Below are positions 1 to 9,907 of a stretch of 64,000 nucleotides of DNA, in pieces. The notes below the pieces were generated by a model. It had not been told where the DNA came from, made no database searches, and saw only the letters and a program-made list of their open reading frames with translations. Within the stretch, counting starts at the first letter, position 1, and every line of letters begins with the position of its first letter. The position numbers and the translations under genes were made by a program. The DNA comes from Escherichia phage 236Ecol005PP: sequence record PP434423.1; one strand, 5' to 3'.

Positions 1-146
1 TAAATAGCGTTCAATAGGAGCTGTTTTAGCGTCAAAGCCGTTTCCTATGCGGTCAACGCCGTTTCCTCGGTAAGTCCACTCATCTTTATTAATGCCTTTA
101 GCCTTTTCCACAGAAGCTTCAGCGATAAATTCTTTATACGTTTTCA
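1..146 (-). CDS. internal head protein (ip family), N-terminal 48 codons; CDS runs past window start
   Basis: ATG at 144-146; N-terminus MKTYKEFIAEA matches T-even capsid targeting sequence (CTS); early promoter upstream. Confidence 0.6.
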
Positions 147-175
147 TGTGTTTCCTTGTTTGTTTTGATAGAATA

Positions 176-205
176 ATTATATCATATTAATACTTAAGCG
201 TAAAC
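176..205 (-). promoter_or_regulatory. T4-type early promoter (-35 GTTTAC, -10 TATAAT)
   Basis: minus strand GTTTAC-N18-TATAAT just upstream of ip start at 146. Confidence 0.5.
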
Positions 206-468
206 TGTTTAAGCTTTACCGCCAGAAATAATTCCGAAGTTGTTAAAATCATATCCAATATCGTCACATCTACTTTAGGGCTTGCTACAACATAAGCAAT
301 TTCACTACGTTTTGCATAGGTGTTTATTTCTCTACCATCGCCGCCTAGGAAAGAATACCCATTACGTTTTAATGAGCCAAAATCTTCGGCATCACCAACG
401 AAAGCTTTAACTTTAAATTTGGGGCCTTTGGCATCTGCTTCAGCGATAAATTCTTGATACATTTTCAT
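187..468 (-). CDS. internal head protein (ip family), 93 aa
   Basis: ATG start with AAGGA RBS; N-terminus MKMYQEFIAEA = CTS consensus. Confidence 0.7.
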   Translation of the reverse strand: MKMYQEFIAEADAKGPKFKVKAFVGDAEDFGSLKRNGYSFLGGDGREINTYAKRSEIAYVVASPKVDVTILDMILTTSELFLAVKLKQFTLKY

Positions 469-474
469 TTTTCC

Positions 475-888
475 TTAGTAAATTGATTTACCATAGTATT
501 TGTACCAAGTAGGGCGTTGAGCAATTTTTTCATCTAAGCGAGCTTGACTTATCGCAATGGACGCTTCGGACGGGACATAATTATTACGAAATTCGACAGG
601 GATGTCGGAAATATCCTGGACAGTCGTGTCCTTGATTTTGAAACCACGTTTCAAACATTCAGCGATTAGCTCGATTTGACGTAAACGTAAAAATTCGAGT
701 TTGTCGTAAAAGAATGTTACGTGACCTGTGCCTAAGATAAATGTTGGAGAGATTTTAAAATCCTTTACACGTTTACCGTTTTGAACATGTTTACGGACTG
801 CACCAAATACGCGTGGTAATTCACGATACTCAGCCATAAGATGTTGGTCGGTCAATTCAGAAACAAGTGTTAAATTGATACGGGTCAT
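475..888 (-). CDS. denV: endonuclease V, pyrimidine-dimer DNA glycosylase/AP lyase
   Basis: [12 protein letters not shown]...[11 protein letters not shown]... matches T4 EndoV as recalled; ATG at 888 with GGAGG RBS (track start at 900 is TTG). Confidence 0.9.
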
Positions 889-891
889 AAT

Positions 892-939
892 TTCCTCCAA
901 GTAGTCGATGAATGTATAGTATCAAAACCCTTGGAGGAA
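892..939 (-). promoter_or_regulatory. inverted repeat TTCCTCCAA/TTGGAGGAA able to sequester the denV RBS in read-through RNA
   Basis: 9-bp perfect inverted repeat; downstream arm contains the GGAGG Shine-Dalgarno. Confidence 0.45.
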
Positions 940-945
940 GTAAAC
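916..945 (-). promoter_or_regulatory. T4-type early promoter for denV (-35 GTTTAC, -10 TACTAT)
   Basis: GTTTAC-N18-TACTAT on minus strand, located inside the inverted repeat. Confidence 0.5.
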
Positions 946-947
946 AA

Positions 948-2188
<1,241 letters not shown>

Positions 2189-2192
<4 letters not shown>

Positions 2193-2551
2193 TTTAATTT
2201 CCTGCAATCAATCACAAACTCTTTCATTGATTCATTTTCAATATAAGACATGTAGCTATTATATTCTTTTAATTGTATTTTGTAATCCTTTTTTCTTTGC
2301 CAATTTATTTTAAAATTATCATAATGAAAATATAGAATGATACAAAAGAATGAAAATAATGAAATAATTTTAGTATAGCGAAGTTCACTCCAAACTTCTA
2401 TTATATTTACTGTGCCATCGATGTTTAAAATAAGACAGTCAATTAACAATCCAAAAAGACTACCCGCAAGAGCTGCAGCCAACGCCACAGCAAAAATTAA
2501 AAATGACTCAGGAAGCGAATATTTGACTTTATTTAGTTTTGGCTTTTGCAT
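2189..2551 (-). CDS. hypothetical membrane protein (e.2-like position)
   Basis: ATG start; two hydrophobic segments; positional. Confidence 0.6.
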
Positions 2552-2925
2552 CGTGATTCCTTAACAAATTTCATAATTTCATCAAATTCATACGCAGCAA
2601 GTTTAAGCTGATATTCCTTTTTAATCTTTTTACACTGTGCTTTCCAATCACGTACGCGTTTACGATAATGCCTTCCTTGATACCAGTATCCTACCCAATT
2701 TACAGGTATTAATAAAAGCGGAATTATTAATGGAAGAATTAGCGTTGCTCCAAATATTACACCGGATTCAATATCAGTCATAACGTCTATAACCATTCCA
2801 GCAATTAGCAGAATCACAAATGATACAGCTACCACAGGACCCATTAATACATCAGTAGAAATTATCTGGCGCTTTAGTTCATACTTCACAGGTTTACTTG
2901 GAAGGTATAGTGATGGCTTTGACAT
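2533..2925 (-). CDS. hypothetical membrane protein
   Basis: ATG at 2925 with AGGAA RBS (track start 2946 is TTG); multiple hydrophobic helices. Confidence 0.5.
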   Translation of the reverse strand: MSKPSLYLPSKPVKYELKRQIISTDVLMGPVVAVSFVILLIAGMVIDVMTDIESGVIFGATLILPLIIPLLLIPVNWVGYWYQGRHYRKRVRDWKAQCKKIKKEYQLKLAAYEFDEIMKFVKESRCKSQN

Positions 2926-3502
2926 ATTCTCTACATTCCTTAACAAATTTTTCTAATAATAAATCGCTTTCAAAATTAGGATTTTCTACGAATTTATCAA
3001 AAAGATCATCAATAATAGTCAAGATATTCTTTTTACTAAGAATACGCTTATTTTCATATTTTGTTTCAGAGTCAACTATAAGAGTAAAGAAATATTTCTT
3101 TCCCTGAAATTTTACTGTAGTATCAATATAAAATAAATTTGACTTTTGTAAATTACGTCTAAACCCCGCGTCACTTAAACTATAAATGCCAAGATAGTCA
3201 TAATCGTCGTTTAAATAGCATACCGTCCATTCAGGGGAAATGAAATCAGTAAATTCAACATCAAAATCACATGTCAATGAATGAATTGATTCAATACTGT
3301 TAATAAGTATTCCAGGACGTATTAAAGACTTTTTACCTCTATAAAATCTTCCAGAAAGACTTTCGTCAGTTTCATATGAAGACCCCCAATAGTAATTACG
3401 TCCTTCTGCCATACGTTTAAGAGCATTTAGTAATTGGTCTGGAACATCAACATGTCTTTGGAACTCTTCAAACATTGAATTGAAATCATTTTGCATTCTC
3501 AT
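2894..3502 (-). CDS. hypothetical protein, 202 aa
   Basis: ATG with GGAG RBS; long ORF in early-gene orientation. Confidence 0.6.
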   Translation of the reverse strand: MRMQNDFNSMFEEFQRHVDVPDQLLNALKRMAEGRNYYWGSSYETDESLSGRFYRGKKSLIRPGILINSIESIHSLTCDFDVEFTDFISPEWTVCYLNDDYDYLGIYSLSDAGFRRNLQKSNLFYIDTTVKFQGKKYFFTLIVDSETKYENKRILSKKNILTIIDDLFDKFVENPNFESDLLLEKFVKECREYVKAITIPSK

Positions 3503-3522
3503 TCCTATTTACTCCAGTAATA

Positions 3523-3536
3523 GGGGCCGAAGCCCC
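3523..3536. terminator. GC hairpin GGGGCCGAAGCCCC (GNRA-like tetraloop) between ORFs
   Basis: perfect 5-bp GC stem with CGAA loop; weak U-tract. Confidence 0.3.
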
Positions 3537-3542
3537 TTATCA

Positions 3543-4136
3543 TTATTTCAGAGAATTAATGTATTCCTGAACATCGGCAGAAGTGGTTTCAACCCCAGAA
3601 ATATTACCGTTAAAGGTTTCAACTCGAGCAAGGGTATCTTCAATATCAACCTTAGTTAGCGCTGCGATTTCAACTACATCATCGGCAGTACTAATTCCAA
3701 GGGCATTTGCCGCTCGAGTTTCACGGATATATTCCAATTTAACTGCAAGTTCTTGGCGAGCATCATCTAACTCAACTACTTTCTTGGCGATTTCAATTCG
3801 CATTTCAGCATAACCATCAGCCTTAGTAGTCAACTGCTCAGCTGTTCGACGATATAATAAACCGAGTTTAGCATGCATTGTTACATCTTGACCTTCGGAA
3901 AGAAGCTTGCGAATTTCACGCTCTTTTGATTCGGCTTGTCGATTCTTTTCGATAACAAGTTCACGAATACGCTTTTCTTCATTAATAGATTTAACAGAAG
4001 CAGTTTTTAGATCTTTAATTTTATCAAGTAGTTTTGCTGCTGCAGCAGTATACTGTTCTTCGACAGATAGATTTTTAGCCATAGCAGAACCAAGTTTAGT
4101 GCGAATAAACTCAACAATTTTCTTCAGTGTGTTCAT
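3543..4136 (-). CDS. coiled-coil protein with PspA/IM30-like character, 197 aa
   Basis: ATG start; long charged heptad-like region; resemblance to PspA judged by eye only. Confidence 0.6.
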
Positions 4137-4179
4137 AGTATTTCCTTAGGTTAATTGAGATTTAAAATCCATGGGAGTA

Positions 4180-4356
4180 TTATACTCCAAAGAGTTTATA
4201 AACTATTTTAACATCTCCTTTTGCTACTTTATAGCCTTCAGCCCAAGATACAACCGAGTTTTTATCTGAAGATTCAAAGTCAGGCATTGGACTTTCATCA
4301 ATGTTCACACAGTATGTTTCTTCATTTTCGTCAAACCAAATAGTTAAAGTAGTCAT
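4180..4356 (-). CDS. small hypothetical protein, 58 aa
   Basis: ATG at 4356 preceded by GGAGAAATAA; below the ORF-track length cutoff. Confidence 0.4.
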   Translation of the reverse strand: MTTLTIWFDENEETYCVNIDESPMPDFESSDKNSVVSWAEGYKVAKGDVKIVYKLFGV

Positions 4357-4424
4357 TTATTTCTCCGCTTCTGTGGTTGTTTTGATAAATCTATAATAAC
4401 ACCGTCCTTGGTGTTTGTATACAC

Positions 4425-4688
4425 TTATTTCATATTATTGAAATATTCTTCTGCGATTTCGTCGTTATCATGGTAAACTTTAGAAGACAGTTTAACATAA
4501 CCTTCAGCAGTGAACATGTTAATCACAACTTTTACAGTATACCACTGACCGTCTTCATTACCCATTACTGCGTAAGTTTCAAACATCGGATGGTCAGGAC
4601 CGATAACTTTAATATCATTCACTGTACGACCGAAATCTTCTGAAACGCATTTCATAAAGAAGTTGAACAGTTCGCCGTAATTATCCAT
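4425..4688 (-). CDS. hypothetical protein, 87 aa
   Basis: ATG at 4688 with GGAG RBS (track start 4700 is TTG). Confidence 0.6.
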   Translation of the reverse strand: MDNYGELFNFFMKCVSEDFGRTVNDIKVIGPDHPMFETYAVMGNEDGQWYTVKVVINMFTAEGYVKLSSKVYHDNDEIAEEYFNNMK

Positions 4689-4731
4689 TTCATTCTCCAA
4701 GTTGTTTTCTGTATCAGTAGTTGATATTGAT

Positions 4732-4761
4732 ATAGTACCATGGAAGAACAGGGATGTAAAC
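4732..4761 (-). promoter_or_regulatory. T4-type early promoter (-35 GTTTAC, -10 TACTAT)
   Basis: GGTTTACA-N17-TACTAT on minus strand upstream of ORF 4425-4688. Confidence 0.45.
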
Positions 4762-4894
4762 CATTTTGTGAAAAAATTTTTTTAAAAGTTTTAGGGAATT
4801 CTAGGGCAGGGAGGGGCAATTAAAGGATAGGATAATATATTATAAAGGGTAGAAACTAAATGATGCCTAGAGAGGTCCAAAAAGGCCTAGATAC

Positions 4895-4923
4895 TAAAAA
4901 GCCCCAACCTTTCGGCTGGGGCT
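4895..4923 (-). terminator. rho-independent terminator closing the tRNA/stable-RNA transcription unit
   Basis: minus strand AGCCCCAGCCGAAAGGUUGGGGCU followed by UUUUU. Confidence 0.6.
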
Positions 4924-4971
4924 AAGCCTTGCGGCAACCTTGTCGGGGTTCCACCTGCTAAGGCAAGTGTT

Positions 4972-5066
4972 TGTACGAAACGCCGGGATTTGAACCCGGT
5001 TATTGAGCAGTTGACGCTACTCAATATTTTTAAAAGGCCATATCTCGACCATATCCGAACGTTCCG
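4972..5066 (-). ncRNA. tRNA-like stable RNA (candidate equivalent of T4 RNA species 1/2)
   Basis: canonical T-arm CCGGG-TTCAAAT-CCCGG and 7-bp acceptor-like stem, but no standard anticodon arm. Confidence 0.3.
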
Positions 5067-5210
5067 TCAAAAACGCTACTCGGCTTACGGCAAAGATATT
5101 TCCTCGAATCGATAATTCGGTGCGCCGTTTCTGCTGTGATGTAAGAGGGCATCAATAAACGCAAAGATTATTAACGCAATTCCTTACTCAGGGAACATCA
5201 GTCCGACGAC

Positions 5211-5765
5211 TTACCGGTAGCGACCCGGTTTCTCATTTGGTATTTCAAATTGTGTAGATTTAGTATCTAATTTTTTAACTATGGAACTTATGTCATGAAA
5301 GAAAAACCATTCGCCATTTATATGGTCCTGATTATAAATGCTGTGCATATATTTTTCAAGTTCTACTGCATCCTGGGAATATCTAAATGATACTATTTTA
5401 AAACTTTTAAACGGTGAAAATGTATTTGCTGTTATAACTCTAACATCAGGTTCTATACTTCTTCCTATTTTATAATAATTAGGATTTGTAGTATCTACCA
5501 TTATGTATACGAAAGCCTGTCGATAGCTTTTTTCTATATCAAATTCATCTTTAAATTTCAAAAGATTTAGGGCGGCAGTCCTACAAAATACTTTCCATTT
5601 TGACAAGCGTTTGGCTTCAGTCATAGAAAAGAATTTTTTCTTATCTGTTATTTTAAGAAAAGCAACATTTTCAATTAGTTCTTGTGTTATTTCAAAATTA
5701 CCGCGGTATATTAATCCAGCTTTTATAGCCAAATTAATTTGGTCCCAGTCTACATCACTTCTCAT
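5211..5765 (-). CDS. T5orf172 / GIY-YIG-like domain protein, 184 aa (possible seg-type mobile endonuclease)
   Basis: C-terminal AFVYIMVD...NYYKIGRS...GEWFFF resembles the T5orf172 GIY-YIG-like fold; ATG start. Confidence 0.7.
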   Translation of the reverse strand: MRSDVDWDQINLAIKAGLIYRGNFEITQELIENVAFLKITDKKKFFSMTEAKRLSKWKVFCRTAALNLLKFKDEFDIEKSYRQAFVYIMVDTTNPNYYKIGRSIEPDVRVITANTFSPFKSFKIVSFRYSQDAVELEKYMHSIYNQDHINGEWFFFHDISSIVKKLDTKSTQFEIPNEKPGRYR

Positions 5766-5786
5766 AATATTATTCTCTCAATAATT

Positions 5787-5863
5787 TGGCCAGGGTGAAA
5801 GGATTCTAACCTTTAACCTGCGGTTTAGAGGACCGCTACTCTATACAATTGAGTTACACCCCG
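5787..5863 (-). tRNA. tRNA-Arg (anticodon UCU)
   Basis: hand-folded cloverleaf; anticodon loop CCTCTAA; T-loop TTAGAAT; encoded CCA. Confidence 0.55.
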
Positions 5864-5989
5864 TAATTAGTTCACAGCAATACCTACTCCAACAATCAAG
5901 ATGTCTTCACACGAAATTAAGAGAAGAGTGATCAGTTCAACCACTATAATCGCGTCAAGTAGATATTAATGTGACAACTGTCACAAGTT

Positions 5990-6064
5990 TGGCGGACATG
6001 CATGGATTCGAACCATGGACCAATTGATTAACAGTCAACTGCTCTACCACTGAGCTACACATCC
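5990..6064 (-). tRNA. tRNA-Asn (anticodon GUU)
   Basis: hand-folded: GGATGTG acceptor, GCTC/GAGC D-stem, loop CTGTTAA, T-loop TTCGAAT, encoded CCA. Confidence 0.7.
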
Positions 6065-6068
6065 AAAT

Positions 6069-6155
6069 TGGTGGGGAGTGATGGAGTCGAACCACCCGAG
6101 TCGCAATGACAATGGATTTACAGTCCACACCGCTACCTCTACGGGATAACTCCCC
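6069..6155 (-). tRNA. tRNA-Tyr (anticodon GUA), long variable arm
   Basis: anticodon arm GTGGA-CTGTAAA-TCCAT as in bacterial tRNA-Tyr; type II variable arm; encoded CCA. Confidence 0.7.
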
Positions 6156-6168
6156 TAATTCGTAATTT

Positions 6169-6243
6169 GGTGGCCCTGGGTGGAATTGAACCACCATCTG
6201 GCGATTATGAGTCGCTTGCTTGAACCTTCCAGCTACAGGGCCT
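6169..6243 (-). tRNA. tRNA with CAU anticodon (Ile-lysidine type as in T4, or Met)
   Basis: anticodon loop CTCATAA; T-arm GGTGG-TTCAATT-CCACC; encoded CCA. Confidence 0.7.
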
Positions 6244-6244
6244 T

Positions 6245-6319
6245 GGTGCTGATTGACGGAATCGAACCGCCGACCTTCTCATTACAAGTGAGTTGCTCTA
6301 CCTACTGAGCTAAATCAGC
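6245..6319 (-). tRNA. tRNA-Thr (anticodon UGU)
   Basis: GCTGATT acceptor, loop CTTGTAA, T-loop TTCGATT, encoded CCA. Confidence 0.8.
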
Positions 6320-6325
6320 AAAAAC

Positions 6326-6415
6326 TGGCGGAGGCGATAGGATTTGAACCTATGAGTCGCCGGAGCGACTGCCGGTTTTCAAGACCGGTGCATTAAACCA
6401 CTCTGCCACGCCTCC
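6326..6415 (-). tRNA. tRNA-Ser (anticodon UGA), long variable arm
   Basis: anticodon arm CCGGT-CTTGAAA-ACCGG; type II variable arm; encoded CCA. Confidence 0.8.
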
Positions 6416-6417
6416 AG

Positions 6418-6491
6418 TCTCCGCGGCAGGATTTGAACCTGCGACATTCTGCTCCCAAAGCAGACGCTCTACCAAACTGAGCTACACGGAG
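6418..6491 (-). tRNA. tRNA-Pro (anticodon UGG), CCA not encoded
   Basis: anticodon loop TTTGGGA; T-arm GCAGG-TTCAAAT-CCTGC; 3-prime end lacks CCA. Confidence 0.75.
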
Positions 6492-6501
6492 TAAATTAAA
6501 T

Positions 6502-6575
<74 letters not shown>

Positions 6576-6581
6576 AAACTT

Positions 6582-6668
6582 TGGTACGAGAAGTGGGACT
6601 CGAACCCACAAGGAAATCATTCCGCAGCATTTTAAGTGCTGTGCCTTTACCAATTTGACCATTCTCGC
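6582..6668 (-). tRNA. tRNA-Leu (anticodon UAA), long variable arm
   Basis: anticodon arm CAGCA-CTTAAAA-TGCTG; T-arm GTGGG-TTCGAGT-CCCAC; encoded CCA. Confidence 0.8.
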
Positions 6669-6669
6669 G

Positions 6670-6742
6670 CTGGGAATAAAGGACTCGAACCTTTGCATCT
6701 AGCAGTCAAAGTGCTATGCCTTATCAACTTGGCTAATTCCCA
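6670..6742 (-). tRNA. tRNA-Gln (anticodon UUG), CCA not encoded
   Basis: anticodon arm TAGCA-CTTTGAC-TGCTA; T-arm AAAGG-TTCGAGT-CCTTT. Confidence 0.75.
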
Positions 6743-6811
6743 ATTATTAACAAAGGCTCTCAAGCAAGAACCCTTGATGATAGAGGGTATTAATCAGTGC
6801 GATATGAGTTA

Positions 6812-6835
6812 ATAATAACAAATAATTCTTAAAGC
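6812..6835 (-). promoter_or_regulatory. middle-type promoter (MotA box TGCTTTA, -10 TATTAT) upstream of tRNA cluster
   Basis: minus strand TGCTTTA-N12-TATTAT. Confidence 0.45.
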
Positions 6836-6839
6836 ATAT

Positions 6840-7127
6840 TTACCATTTATGATAATACATGTTTACGATGCATTCAAGACCCAAAGGATTCTTGAAAATA
6901 TCATATTCAAGAGGACCTTTTTCTGTTTCAATAAAGAAATCAAAATTTACTGTATTAAATTTACGGTCTTCCTTCACTAATTTAACTTGAGAAGATGAAC
7001 GGTCAATGTAAACCTTTTCAACTTCAAAACATGTTAAAATGCCATAATCGTCAATCAAGGCTTTAGCCGCGTCTTGATCATATTTATATCCATTTTCAAT
7101 GGATGATACTTTCGCATAAAGAATCAT
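6840..7127 (-). CDS. hypothetical protein, 95 aa
   Basis: ATG start; compact ORF between tRNA cluster and ip locus. Confidence 0.6.
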   Translation of the reverse strand: MILYAKVSSIENGYKYDQDAAKALIDDYGILTCFEVEKVYIDRSSSQVKLVKEDRKFNTVNFDFFIETEKGPLEYDIFKNPLGLECIVNMYYHKW

Positions 7128-7697: not shown

Positions 7698-7725
7698 TTT
7701 ATTCTCCTCTGTAGTTGATAGGGTA

Positions 7726-9182: not shown

Positions 9183-9907
9183 TATAGTACCTTTAGTGTA
9201 TTTTTAATTTTAGAAAAAAGTTCTTCAAGAGAACCATCGTTTGTAATTACTAAATCGCCATCACGAATTGGCAATCCAGCTTCTGTAATATGAGTATCAT
9301 TGGATTTTTGACCAGGACGAACTACATGAATTACTGTAGCACCCATCGCCCTAGCCGCATCCATTTCATGATCTTGACGAGTATCAGGAACGATATAATA
9401 ATCATAACCTGAGTTAAATTTATCAAGATAATCTAAAGCAAATAATTTTACCCAATACATGCGGTCGAAGTTATTAACAATCAAATCCGTACCTAGGGCT
9501 TGCATCAGACGACGGACTGACCATTGATCTTCAATATTATTTATAACGTCAGCAATCTTGTTAAATGCTACGAAAGTAACTGATTCTTTTCCTTCGTCAT
9601 CAAAAACAAACACGCCTTTAATTGGGCTTTTACTATTAAGATAGCAAAATGCTTGTTCCATAATCGTAATTACTTCTAATTTAGTCAGATTCAAATTAGT
9701 CTCACGATCATAGTCAATTCCTTCAAACTCTTTACGAGTTAAACAAGGATAGTCAGTGTTTGCTGCAAATACGCCCCATGCATAAGCCAATGCATCTTTA
9801 ATAGGACCAGCAAGTTGATATTTAACTGCAGAATAATTATTCATGATAAAATCTGCAGTAGTATCTTTTCCACTACGCTTTACACCGCTTAAAAAGATTA
9901 GTTTCAT
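9182..9907 (-). CDS. 1: deoxynucleoside monophosphate kinase
   Basis: P-loop GVKRSGKDT; 241 aa as T4 gp1; synteny. Confidence 0.9.

What the first reader, a model, noticed from the sequence alone, without database searches (positions are those of the whole stretch)
892..945. denV early promoter embedded inside a hairpin that would occlude its own ribosome binding site
The 9-bp inverted repeat TTCCTCCAA ... TTGGAGGAA has its downstream arm on the GGAGG Shine-Dalgarno of denV. The early promoter (GTTTAC-N18-TACTAT) lies between the arms. Read-through RNA from upstream would fold and mask the RBS, whereas transcripts starting at the internal promoter lack the upstream arm and are translatable. 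This is the architecture classically described for T4 gene e, here applied to an early promoter.
Basis: partly seen in the sequence, partly recalled or inferred. Interest (0 to 1): 0.5.

Follow-up and report, generated by a model that had tools for sequence, protein, structure and literature searches.

The report
denV early promoter inside RBS-masking hairpin
In this T4-like phage the DNA-repair gene denV carries its own early promoter inside an RNA hairpin that would hide the gene's ribosome-binding site on longer transcripts from upstream; relatives keep this layout through compensating mutations, so the gene is probably translated only from its own short transcript.

Summary
On the minus strand a perfect 10-bp (not 9-bp) inverted repeat, TTCCTCCAAG (939-930) / CTTGGAGGAA (901-892), has its 3' arm on the denV Shine-Dalgarno GGAGG (898-894; ATG at 888). 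The T4-type early promoter is GTTTAC (945-940), N18, TGn-TACTAT (921-916). Its -35 lies just outside the 5' arm. The 5' arm fills the promoter spacer, and the -10 and predicted start (~909) lie in the loop.

- **Energetics.** Read-through RNA needs about 12-14 kcal/mol to open the SD. Promoter-initiated RNA needs about 2.
- **T4 itself.** T4 has the same layout with different arms (TCTCCTGTAG/CTACAGGAGA).
- **Relatives.** About 25 distinct denV leaders from T-even-type genera (Tequatrovirus, Winkler-, Gelderland-, Marfa-, Bragavirus) all pair the SD and/or AUG with sequence upstream of the predicted start. They use at least two layouts and show clear compensatory changes.
- **Limits of conservation.** RB43, Aeromonas and jumbo-phage denV loci lack it.

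The mechanism is the known T4 gene e / soc / 49 / I-TevI logic, but with an early rather than a late promoter. Reviews from 2010 describe all known cases as late genes. Nothing here is experimentally mapped. Verdict: real, selected, and a new variant of a known kind, of moderate interest.

The parts
940..945 (-). -35 hexamer GTTTAC of a T4-type early (sigma-70) promoter, immediately 5' of the hairpin
   Evidence: Read directly. Invariant in all T-even-type denV leaders. Phage Lutter annotates a promoter here.
930..939 (-). 5' arm of the hairpin, TTCCTCCAAG (anti-SD). It occupies the first 10 nt of the 18-nt promoter spacer and is present only in RNA coming from upstream.
   Evidence: the repeat finder 10/10 complementary. 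Covaries with the 3' arm across relatives.
916..924 (-). Extended -10: TG (924-923), A, then TACTAT (921-916), in the hairpin loop
   Evidence: Read directly. Identical TGATACTAT in T4 denV. A TGn-TAnnnT is present in all T-even-type leaders.
908..911 (-). Predicted transcription start (A at 909, 7 nt after the -10), inside the loop. RNA starting here lacks the 5' arm.
   Evidence: Inferred from promoter geometry only; not mapped. RNA folded from 909-912 is essentially unstructured, with ensemble energy -2.7 to -3.3 kcal/mol.
892..901 (-). 3' arm CTTGGAGGAA, containing the denV Shine-Dalgarno GGAGG (898-894), 5 nt before the ATG
   Evidence: SD opening energy is about 12 kcal/mol in read-through RNA and about 2 in promoter-initiated RNA.
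475..888 (-). denV coding sequence (endonuclease V / pyrimidine-dimer glycosylase, 137 aa; ATG 888-886). The ORF list's TTG at 900 is not the real start.
   Evidence: ORF list. 100% protein identity to annotated DenV of phages Av-05 and GRNsp7. The N-terminus MTRINL is shared by all homologues.
948..1229 (-). Upstream internal-head-protein-like gene ([10 protein letters not shown]... leader). Its stop TAG 950-948 lies 8 nt before the 5' arm, and its ATG overlaps the stop of gene e (ATGA). It is the source of read-through RNA.
   Evidence: Annotated 'internal head protein' in relatives. No terminator-like site between it and denV.
1710..1750 (-). Comparator in the same window: the gene e leader hairpin, with two late promoters TATAAATA (1728-1735, 1741-1748) inside it. 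These are the only late-promoter motifs on this strand in 1-7000, so late RNA entering denV starts here.
   Evidence: Fold, motif scan, opening energy 14-17 kcal/mol.

Best explanation
The denV leader is a transcript-specific translational switch. Its sequence logic is the mirror image of the T4 gene e leader.

RNA polymerase arriving from upstream transcribes the anti-SD segment TTCCTCCAAG, which is hidden in the spacer of the denV promoter, and about 38 nt later the SD segment CTTGGAGGAA. Such upstream RNA includes early read-through and late RNA from the two gene e late promoters. The two segments form a 10-bp helix, extended by a few pairs including weak pairs over the AUG, that sequesters the SD. 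denV is therefore poorly translated from polycistronic RNA.

RNA polymerase that initiates at denV's own early promoter starts about 20 nt after the 5' arm. That mRNA lacks the arm, has an open ribosome-binding site and is translated. The net effect is that DenV synthesis follows the activity of its own early promoter, even though the gene lies inside a transcription unit that is also read late for the flanking internal head protein genes.

What is shown and what is inferred:
- Shown here: the sequence elements, the thermodynamics, the conservation and the covariation.
- Taken from T4 literature: early RNA and early protein for denV, and the validated mechanism for gene e.
- Inferred: the start site, the existence and amount of read-through RNA in this phage, the size of the translational block, and the selective reason for it.
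For: - **Anatomy.**
- **Folding.** Read-through RNA folds at -21.1 kcal/mol (z = -2.35). The minimal hairpin is -18.6 and the 10-bp stem alone -13.9. SD opening costs 12-14 kcal/mol in read-through RNA and 1.6-2.8 in promoter-initiated RNA. The gene e read-through leader in the same window costs 14-17.
- **Shuffle test.** Promoter segment against TIR gives -18.6 against -7.9 +/- 2.4, p about 0.0015.
- **T4.** T4 denV reads GTTTAC-A-TCTCCTGTAG-GTATGA-TACTAT-...-CTACAGGAGA. It is the most extreme of 17 T4 early-promoter junctions tested, with 0 of 1000 shuffles reaching it.
- **Relatives.** All T-even-type denV loci from IMG/VR and GenBank pair the SD and/or AUG with sequence upstream of the predicted start. 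Read-through RNA is -16.5 to -30 kcal/mol and promoter-initiated RNA 0 to -3.4.
 - Layout A (5' arm in the spacer) has at least 4 full-length arm sequences, plus three leaders (L015, L019, L020) that pair only about 5 bp at the SD.
 - Layout B (5' arm over the -10 and discriminator) has at least 6 arm sequences.
 - Out-of-sample records: Kc304 (Winklervirus), CGG4-1 (Gelderlandvirus, 14-bp stem), F48 (Marfavirus) and SJ_PmiM (Bragavirus).
- **Covariation.**
 - Layout A: 82% of cells paired against 41-50% when partners are slid. Seven pairs have changes on both sides. Score 0.444 against at most 0.163.
 - Layout B: 88% against 42-64%. Six pairs have changes on both sides. Score 0.479 against at most 0.198.
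- **Read-through.** No terminator-like site between e and denV. Late promoters occur only upstream of e.
- **T4 omics.** denV is early RNA and early protein. e, ipIII and ipII are early RNA and late protein.
- **RegB study.** Durand et al. 2006 treated the dominant T4 denV mRNA as unstructured at GGAG, and grafting an A-rich box made it RegB-cleavable in vivo. This fits an open SD on the major, promoter-proximal mRNA.
Against: - No transcript 5' end, RNA structure probing or translation measurement exists for this phage, and none specific to the hairpin was found for T4.
- The start site is inferred from geometry only.
- The generic sigma-70 scan scores the promoter below its threshold.
- Hairpins that enclose early promoters without touching the SD also occur (window ORF starts 7697 and 63121; T4 ipII and ipIII). 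Part of the structure could therefore reflect a more general 'promoter in stem-loop' cassette.
- Three layout-A leaders (L015, L019, L020) pair only about 5 bp with the SD.
- My anchored alignments were built around the SD/anti-SD register, which leans towards the structure. The slid controls mitigate this but do not remove it.
- Cotranscriptional ribosome loading could outrun folding in vivo.
Confidence: 0.68

Rival explanations
1. The hairpin is a generic promoter/stem-loop cassette (PeSL-like). Its main role would be transcriptional attenuation or insulation, 3'-end stabilisation of the upstream message, or providing a recombination joint in the hyperplastic internal-protein locus. The overlap with the SD would be a by-product of a very short intergenic space.
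For: - PeSL cassettes (early promoter plus stem-loop plus SD plus start codon) are described for T4/PST with the consensus TTTACW-N17-TAYWAT, which this promoter fits (PMC4122927).
- T4 ipII and ipIII, and window promoters at ORF starts 7697 and 63121, sit in strong hairpins that do not include the SD.
- The denV leader and CDS are shuffled independently: L016 has the window-type leader with a 78%-identical DenV.
- The L020 leader resembles the T4 ipIII promoter hairpin.
Against: - There is no U-tract after the stem and no terminator call.
- In layout B the hairpin does not enclose the promoter at all. The only feature common to all variants is that the SD or AUG pairs with sequence upstream of the start.
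- An anti-SD (CTCC or CTTCC) is present in every T-even-type variant.
- In RB43 and jumbo phages, true terminator-plus-promoter cassettes precede denV and leave the SD unpaired.
Confidence: 0.14
2. The hairpin mainly shields the GGAG of the denV SD on long transcripts from RegB or other endonucleases. This would keep the polycistronic RNA that also encodes the downstream internal-protein genes intact. Translational silencing of denV would be secondary.
For: - RegB cuts GGAG in early SDs and is blocked by secondary structure (PMC3014915; PMC1702504).
- The window SD is GGAGG followed by an A-rich stretch (GGAGGAAATTA). G at position 5 enhances cleavage.
- The internal-protein-like gene at 187-468 has no late promoter of its own, so it depends on RNA crossing denV.
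Against: - T4's denV GGAG is RegB-resistant in vivo for sequence reasons, not structural ones, yet T4 keeps the hairpin.
- The window sequence departs from GGAGRAYARAA at positions 7, 9 and 10.
- The cited review reports that late transcripts are not RegB substrates anyway.
Confidence: 0.07
3. The hairpin acts as a translational coupling device. It would make denV translation on polycistronic RNA depend on ribosomes finishing the upstream internal-protein gene and melting the 5' arm.
For: In layout A the upstream stop codon lies only 7-9 nt before the 5' arm: window TAG 950-948 against the arm from 939, with similar spacing in T4, L005 and L010.
Against: - From general knowledge of ribosome geometry, a terminating ribosome would reach at most the first 1-2 nt of a 10-bp stem.
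- In layout B the 5' arm is 25 nt or more from the stop codon.
- The upstream gene differs between phages while the hairpin is kept.
Confidence: 0.05
4. The inverted repeat is a chance occurrence next to a purine-rich SD and has no function.
For: About 4 perfect 10-bp inverted repeats with short loops are expected by chance in 64 kb, and 9 are seen.
Against: Context-specific shuffle test gives p about 0.0015. T4 has independent arm sequences, and at least 10 other leaders show compensatory changes.
Confidence: 0.02

Closest known systems
T4 gene e (lysozyme) leader: late promoters inside an SD-sequestering hairpin (McPheeters et al. 1986, as summarised in PMC3014915)
   Same: A hairpin whose 3' arm is the SD. 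The promoter is placed so that its transcripts lack the 5' arm, and long transcripts from upstream are translationally silent. The window has its own copy of this leader 800 nt upstream (1710-1750), with a similar SD opening energy.
   Different: The internal promoter here is an early sigma-70-type promoter (GTTTAC-N18-TGnTACTAT), not a late TATAAATA promoter. The predicted outcome is therefore translation early only, rather than late only. The 5' arm sits inside the promoter spacer.
Other T4-family RBS-sequestering hairpins with an internal late promoter: soc, 49, I-TevI/II/III, segB, Aeh1 mobE (PMC2988022, PMC3014915)
   Same: The same transcript-specific translation logic on polycistronic RNA.
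   Different: The review states that all these are late genes on transcripts that also encode early and middle products. denV is an early gene on RNA that also serves late genes.
T4 denV's own leader (NC_000866, 65356-65415)
   Same: It is the homologous locus, with the same promoter hexamers and the same architecture. From my own recollection, not verifiable with the tools here, Valerie et al. 1986 (Nucleic Acids Res 14:8637) noted potential stem-loops preceding ipIII, ipII and denV.
   Different: The arm sequences differ at the positions outside CTCC/GGAG (TCTCCTGTAG/CTACAGGAGA against TTCCTCCAAG/CTTGGAGGAA), the spacer is 17 rather than 18 nt, and the upstream gene is ipII rather than the window's IP-like ORF. 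I found no paper that interprets the T4 structure as an early-promoter version of the gene e switch.
PeSL (promoter-early stem-loop) cassettes of T4-like phages (Arbiol et al. 2010, PMC2839356; Comeau et al. 2014, PMC4122927)
   Same: A compact cassette of early promoter, stem-loop, SD and start codon in hyperplastic regions. The promoter fits the T4/PST consensus TTTACW-N17-TAYWAT. The cassette appears to be shuffled as a unit.
   Different: PeSL stem-loops are described as lying just upstream of the promoter and acting as terminators. Here the stem spans the promoter, has no U-tract, and uses the SD as its 3' arm.

Membership tests
Promoter-internal RBS-sequestering hairpin (T4 e / soc / 49 / I-TevI class) | A stable RNA helix that includes the Shine-Dalgarno sequence and/or the start codon | tested here: met
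   10-bp perfect helix covering GGAGG. SD opening costs 12-14 kcal/mol in read-through RNA.
Promoter-internal RBS-sequestering hairpin (T4 e / soc / 49 / I-TevI class) | A promoter positioned so that its transcripts start 3' of the 5' arm | tested here: met
   By sequence only. The -10 at 921-916 puts the predicted start at about 909, 20 nt after the 5' arm. The same geometry is seen in all T-even-type relatives. The actual 5' end is not mapped.
Promoter-internal RBS-sequestering hairpin (T4 e / soc / 49 / I-TevI class) | Transcription from upstream reads through the element | tested here: inconclusive
   No terminator-like site lies between e and denV on this strand, and there are only 2 nt between the upstream stop codon and the -35. 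In T4, e, ipIII and ipII RNA is present early. Read-through was not measured in this phage.
Promoter-internal RBS-sequestering hairpin (T4 e / soc / 49 / I-TevI class) | The internal promoter is a late (gp55) promoter and the gene is a late gene. Reviews describe this as a commonality of all known members. | tested here: not met
   No TATAAATA lies near 890-950; the nearest on this strand are at 1728-1748. The promoter is of the early type. T4 denV is early RNA and early protein. Review statement read.
Promoter-internal RBS-sequestering hairpin (T4 e / soc / 49 / I-TevI class) | Demonstrated difference in translation between long and short transcripts | not testable with these tools
   Needs toeprinting, reporter fusions or ribosome profiling.
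PeSL (promoter-early stem-loop) cassette | Sigma-70-like early promoter followed by the SD and start codon of the downstream ORF | tested here: met
   TTTACT-N17-TACTAT fits TTTACW-N17-TAYWAT. The SD and ATG follow within 30 nt.
PeSL (promoter-early stem-loop) cassette | A stem-loop just upstream of the promoter that acts as a transcription terminator | tested here: not met
   The stem spans the promoter rather than preceding it, has no U-run and gets no terminator call.
PeSL (promoter-early stem-loop) cassette | Location in a hyperplastic region next to variable ORFs | tested here: met
   The flanking genes are internal-protein-like ORFs. The gene upstream of denV differs among relatives (ipII, e, others).
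Intrinsic (Rho-independent) terminator | A G+C-rich stem with a short loop, followed by a U-tract | tested here: not met
   The loop is 28 nt and the tail is AAATTATGACC. Not listed by the terminator scan.
Any curated RNA family (Rfam 15) | A covariance-model match at or near the gathering score | tested here: not met
   The only hit is a sub-threshold chance match on the opposite strand: 17 bits against a gathering score of 60, E = 0.85.

The most novel reading that the evidence does not exclude
Hiding an anti-SD or anti-AUG segment inside the promoter (in the spacer, or over the -10 and discriminator) may be a recurrent design rule of T-even early gene cassettes, not a denV peculiarity. Under this rule a cassette would be translated only from its own promoter and would stay silent on any read-through RNA. 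That would let promoter-plus-gene modules be shuffled between early and late transcription units without mis-timed expression.

In the window, 4 of 12 early-promoter/gene junctions show such pairing at p <= 0.025: denV, ORF starts 56279 and 63522, and gene 1 at 9907. In 55 kb of T4, 3 of 17 do: denV, modB and motB.2. About 0.3-0.4 would be expected by chance in each set.
Probability: 0.3. Interest if true: 0.6.

Novelty: new variant of a known kind. Interest (0 to 1): 0.45.

Why it matters
Transcript-specific translation through a promoter buried in an RBS-masking hairpin is a textbook T4 mechanism, but it has been described only for late genes read through by early RNA. The denV leader would be the reverse case. 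It would be an early gene kept silent on late or long RNA, explaining how an early repair enzyme can sit in the middle of a unit that must also be transcribed late for internal head proteins.

Two features make it a clean natural test case. It is maintained through compensatory substitutions in several genera. It also exists in two alternative layouts that share only the SD/AUG pairing and a 5' arm upstream of the start.

T4 carries the same element, so it is directly testable in the model phage. It also bears on how promoter-plus-gene cassettes can be shuffled in hyperplastic regions without being mis-expressed.

Tried and rejected
- **Generic sigma-70 scan.** It does not list the denV promoter, which matches 8 of 12 positions. 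I kept the promoter call on T4-type consensus, the extended -10, conservation and the Lutter annotation.
- **MAFFT alignment of full leaders (A1).** It put the arms out of structural register and was unusable for pair counting. I replaced it with SD/anti-SD-anchored mini-alignments (A2, A3), which lean towards the structure and were therefore checked with slid controls.
- **Crude window-wide criterion.** Requiring at least 7 of 11 SD nucleotides to pair with anything 21 nt or more upstream was uninformative: 26 of 76 candidate starts met it, many of them false ORFs. I replaced it with a duplex-energy shuffle test.
- **Plain count of perfect inverted repeats.** It showed that the repeat alone is not statistically remarkable.
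- **Rfam.** Nothing.
- **T4 records.** GenBank AF158101 and NC_000866 carry no promoter or structure features at denV.
- **Literature not held.** Miller et al. 2003, Valerie et al. 1986, McPheeters et al. 1986 and Gibb & Edgell 2009 could not be read. My statement about the 1986 stem-loop note therefore rests on memory.
- **T4 start sites.** A search for a T4 genome-wide transcription start map found none.
- **Rejected readings.** Intrinsic terminator (no U-tract), translational coupling (arm too far from the stop codon, and layout B is incompatible with it), and a conserved promoter element in the spacer (CTCC is absent from layout-B denV promoters and from other early promoters).

Full report
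**What the window is.** The first 2.2 kb of the window is the gene e / internal-protein / denV region of a Tequatrovirus (a T4-like coliphage). It is 98.3% identical over 1.4 kb to phage Pu-Krd-SF4 and 92-98% to many others. All genes here are on the minus strand:
- nudE, 1752-2207
- e lysozyme, 1226-1714
- an internal-head-protein-like ORF with the [10 protein letters not shown] leader, 948-1229
- denV, 475-888
- two more internal-protein-like ORFs, one at 187-468 and one starting at 147

The finding therefore has to be read on the minus strand.

**Observation.** Reading 950 to 886 on the minus strand gives:

TAG(stop) TT GTTTAC TTCCTCCAAG GGTTTTGA TACTAT ACATTCATCGACTA CTTGGAGGAA ATT ATG

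- The repeat finder reports one inverted repeat in 700-1300: arms 892-901 and 930-939, 10 nt, 100% complementary, 28 nt apart. The repeat is thus 10 bp, not 9.
- The 3' arm contains the SD GGAGG (898-894), 5 nt before the denV ATG (888).
- The -35 hexamer GTTTAC (945-940) abuts the 5' arm from outside.
- The 5' arm is the first 10 nt of the 18-nt spacer.
- TG(A) at 924-922 makes an extended -10 with TACTAT (921-916).
- The geometric start (about A909) lies in the loop.

The essential point, that the start lies between the arms, is right.

**Is it more than chance?**
- As a bare inverted repeat, no. There are nine perfect repeats of 10 bp or more with 3-40 nt loops in the window, against 3.95 +/- 2.0 in Markov simulations.
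- In context, yes. The best duplex between the promoter segment (-35 end to start) and the translation initiation region is -18.6 kcal/mol. Composition-preserving shuffles give -7.9 +/- 2.4, and 0.15% of them reach the observed value.
- The 91-nt read-through RNA folds at -21.1 kcal/mol, z = -2.35.
- Opening the SD costs 12-14 kcal/mol in read-through RNA and 1.6-2.8 in RNA starting at 909-912.
- The gene e leader in the same window (hairpin 1710-1750, with two TATAAATA promoters inside) costs 14-17 kcal/mol. Its T4 homologue is the experimentally established case (PMC3014915).

**Comparative evidence.** T4's own denV leader reads:

GTTTAC A TCTCCTGTAG GTATGA TACTAT AGACCTATCAA CTACAGGAGA ACACTAAA ATG

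The promoter and the architecture are the same, and the arms are different but mutually complementary. I then fetched 80 denV loci from IMG/VR, plus six named GenBank phages, and folded every leader.

Every T-even-type locus has GTTTAC-N17/18-TGnTAnnnT and a hairpin that pairs the SD and/or AUG with sequence upstream of the predicted start. Read-through RNA is -16.5 to -30 kcal/mol, and promoter-initiated RNA is 0 to -3.4.

Two layouts occur:
- **Layout A.** The 5' arm lies in the spacer, right after the -35. Arm sequences seen:
 - TTCCTCCAAG (the window)
 - TCTCCTGTAG (T4-like)
 - CTCCGTTTG
 - TCTCCTGTG
 - a 14-bp stem (TTCTCCTGTAGATG/CATCTACAGGAGAA) in Salmonella phage CGG4-1 (Gelderlandvirus)
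 - three weaker variants (L015, L019, L020)
- **Layout B.** The 5' arm overlaps the last bases of the -10 and the discriminator and ends at about +1. The 3' arm covers the SD, the spacer and part of the AUG. Arm sequences seen:
 - GATGTCTTCC/GGAGGACATC in Kosakonia phage Kc304 (Winklervirus)
 - TAGTAGCCTT/GGAGGCTACTA in Klebsiella phage F48 (Marfavirus)
 - ATGTCCTCCTA/TAGGAGGACAT
 - GTGTTCTC/GAGAACAC
 - others

Proteus phage SJ_PmiM (Bragavirus) pairs the spacer and -10 with the AUG and the first codons.

On alignments anchored only at the SD/anti-SD register, the pair counts were:

| Layout | Cells paired | Cells paired, partners slid | Pairs with changes on both sides | Covariation score | Score, slid |
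|---|---|---|---|---|---|
| A | 82% | 41-50% | 7 | 0.444 | at most 0.163 |
| B | 88% | 42-64% | 6 | 0.479 | at most 0.198 |

The only property common to all variants is that the ribosome-binding site is paired with a segment that promoter-initiated RNA cannot contain. That is the signature expected if RBS occlusion on read-through RNA is the selected trait.

The feature is absent from more distant denV loci:
- RB43 and the jumbo phages have a terminator hairpin containing the -35, and a free SD.
- Aeromonas phage 44RR has a promoter but no occlusion.
- In the marine homologues denV abuts the preceding ORF (upstream stop codon 1 nt before a TTG start), with no promoter.

**Context that gives the switch a purpose.**
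- No terminator-like site lies between e and denV on this strand.
- The only late-promoter motifs on this strand in 1-7000 are the two upstream of e.
- The IP-like ORF at 948-1229 is coupled to e (ATGA overlap), and the IP-like ORF at 187-468 has no late promoter of its own.
- Late RNA for these head proteins must therefore cross denV.
- In T4, denV is classed as early RNA and early protein. The three genes just upstream (e, ipIII, ipII) are early RNA and late protein (supplement of PMC9697503).
- Durand et al. 2006 treated T4 denV mRNA as unstructured at its GGAG. They could make it RegB-cleavable in vivo by grafting an A-rich box. This fits an open SD on the dominant promoter-proximal mRNA.

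**Most likely mechanism (confidence about 0.68).** RNA from upstream contains both arms, folds, and hides the SD. RNA from denV's own early promoter lacks the 5' arm and is translated. DenV synthesis therefore follows its early promoter, even though the gene is embedded in a unit that is also read late.
- Shown: sequence, energetics, conservation and covariation.
- Inferred: the start site, the read-through level, the size of the block and the selective reason.

**Rivals.**
- **Generic promoter/stem-loop (PeSL-type) cassette with incidental SD overlap (0.14).** This deserves weight because T4 ipII and ipIII, and two window promoters (ORF starts 7697 and 63121), sit in hairpins that do not touch the SD, and because the denV leader is shuffled as a cassette. 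Against it, layout B does not enclose the promoter at all, there is no U-tract, and an anti-SD is present in every variant.
- **Shielding of GGAG from RegB (0.07).** T4's denV site is resistant for sequence reasons, yet T4 keeps the hairpin.
- **Translational coupling to the upstream ORF (0.05).** The stop codon is 7-9 nt from the arm in layout A, but 25 nt or more away in layout B.
- **Chance (0.02).**

**Comparison with what is known.** The mechanism is that of T4 e, soc, 49, I-TevI/II/III, segB and Aeh1 mobE. The 2010 review states that all such genes are late genes. denV fails that one family commonality: its internal promoter is early, and there is no TATAAATA nearby. It meets the structural criteria, so it works like the family without being a canonical member.

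PeSL cassettes share the promoter consensus and the modularity. Their stem-loops, however, are described as upstream terminators.

From memory only, since the paper is not held, Valerie et al. 1986 noted potential stem-loops before ipIII, ipII and denV. I found no source that reads the denV structure as an early-promoter switch.

No Rfam family matches.

**Generality.** The same shuffle test flags 4 of 12 early-promoter junctions in the window: denV, ORF starts 56279 and 63522, and gene 1 at 9907, where the AUG is occluded. It flags 3 of 17 junctions in 55 kb of T4: denV, modB and motB.2. About 0.3-0.4 would be expected by chance in each set. denV is the strongest case in both sets. The architecture is recurrent but not universal.

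**Verdict.** This is a new variant of a known kind, of moderate interest (0.45). It needs 5'-end mapping and arm mutants with compensatory mutants, and both are feasible in T4 itself.

Noticed in passing
window 56279 (-), 63522 (-), 9907 (-): ORF starts and the roughly 60 nt upstream of each: Three more early-promoter junctions pair the translation initiation region with sequence upstream of the predicted start.
- A 96-aa ORF with arms CCTCATGTT/AACATGAGG.
- A 110-aa ORF with arms TTCCTTTGT/ACAAAGGAG.
- The gene 1 (dNMP kinase-like, 241 aa) leader, where a spacer segment pairs over the AUG.
Shuffle p = 0.0025, 0.0135 and 0.025 respectively.
   Followed up: partly
window, upstream of ORF starts 7697 (-) and 63121 (-); T4 ipII and ipIII promoters (L002): Early promoters sit in strong hairpins that enclose the -10 but leave the SD unpaired, for example ATAGGGTAGTGATACTATTACCCTAT. 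T4 ipII and ipIII have the same kind of structure. Their function is unexplained; they are PeSL-like.
   Followed up: partly
window 1710-1750 (-): The classical gene e leader is present: an SD-sequestering hairpin with two TATAAATA late promoters (1728-1735, 1741-1748) inside it.
   Followed up: yes
window 1226-1231 (-); ORFs 948-1229, 187-468 and one starting at 147: Three ORFs carry the internal-protein capsid-targeting leader (MK[TM]Y.EF[IL].E). The first overlaps the gene e stop codon (ATGA), which suggests translational coupling to e. denV is thus sandwiched between head internal-protein genes.
   Followed up: no
L016 compared with the window; L020 compared with the T4 ipIII promoter: The denV leader and the denV CDS are shuffled independently. 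L016 has the window-type leader but a DenV only 78% identical. L020's leader resembles the T4 ipIII promoter hairpin. The roughly 55-nt unit of promoter, both arms and SD seems to move as one cassette.
   Followed up: partly
window 4717-4726 (-), 7711-7720 (-); denV 903-912 has CATCGACTAC: A box TATCAACTAC lies just downstream of several early -10 elements, at roughly +1 to +15 of the transcript. With up to 1 mismatch there are 13 matches in the window against 5.0 +/- 2.3 expected. Its role is unknown.
   Followed up: no
L025, L028, L032, L033 (jumbo phages) and L088 (RB43), upstream of denV: denV is preceded by a G+C-rich terminator hairpin, followed by a T-run and a -10, with no SD occlusion. 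In the jumbo phages the hairpin contains the -35 (GGGTTGACTTCGGTCAGCCCTTTTT); in RB43 the stem sequence is different. This is a different promoter/stem-loop solution, like the RB49-type PeSL.
   Followed up: no
T4 NC_000866 13130 (modB) and 8161 (motB.2): In T4 these two early-promoter junctions also show significant promoter-segment/TIR complementarity. modB has layout B (GATAGCTTC/GGAGGCTATC) and motB.2 has layout A.
   Followed up: no
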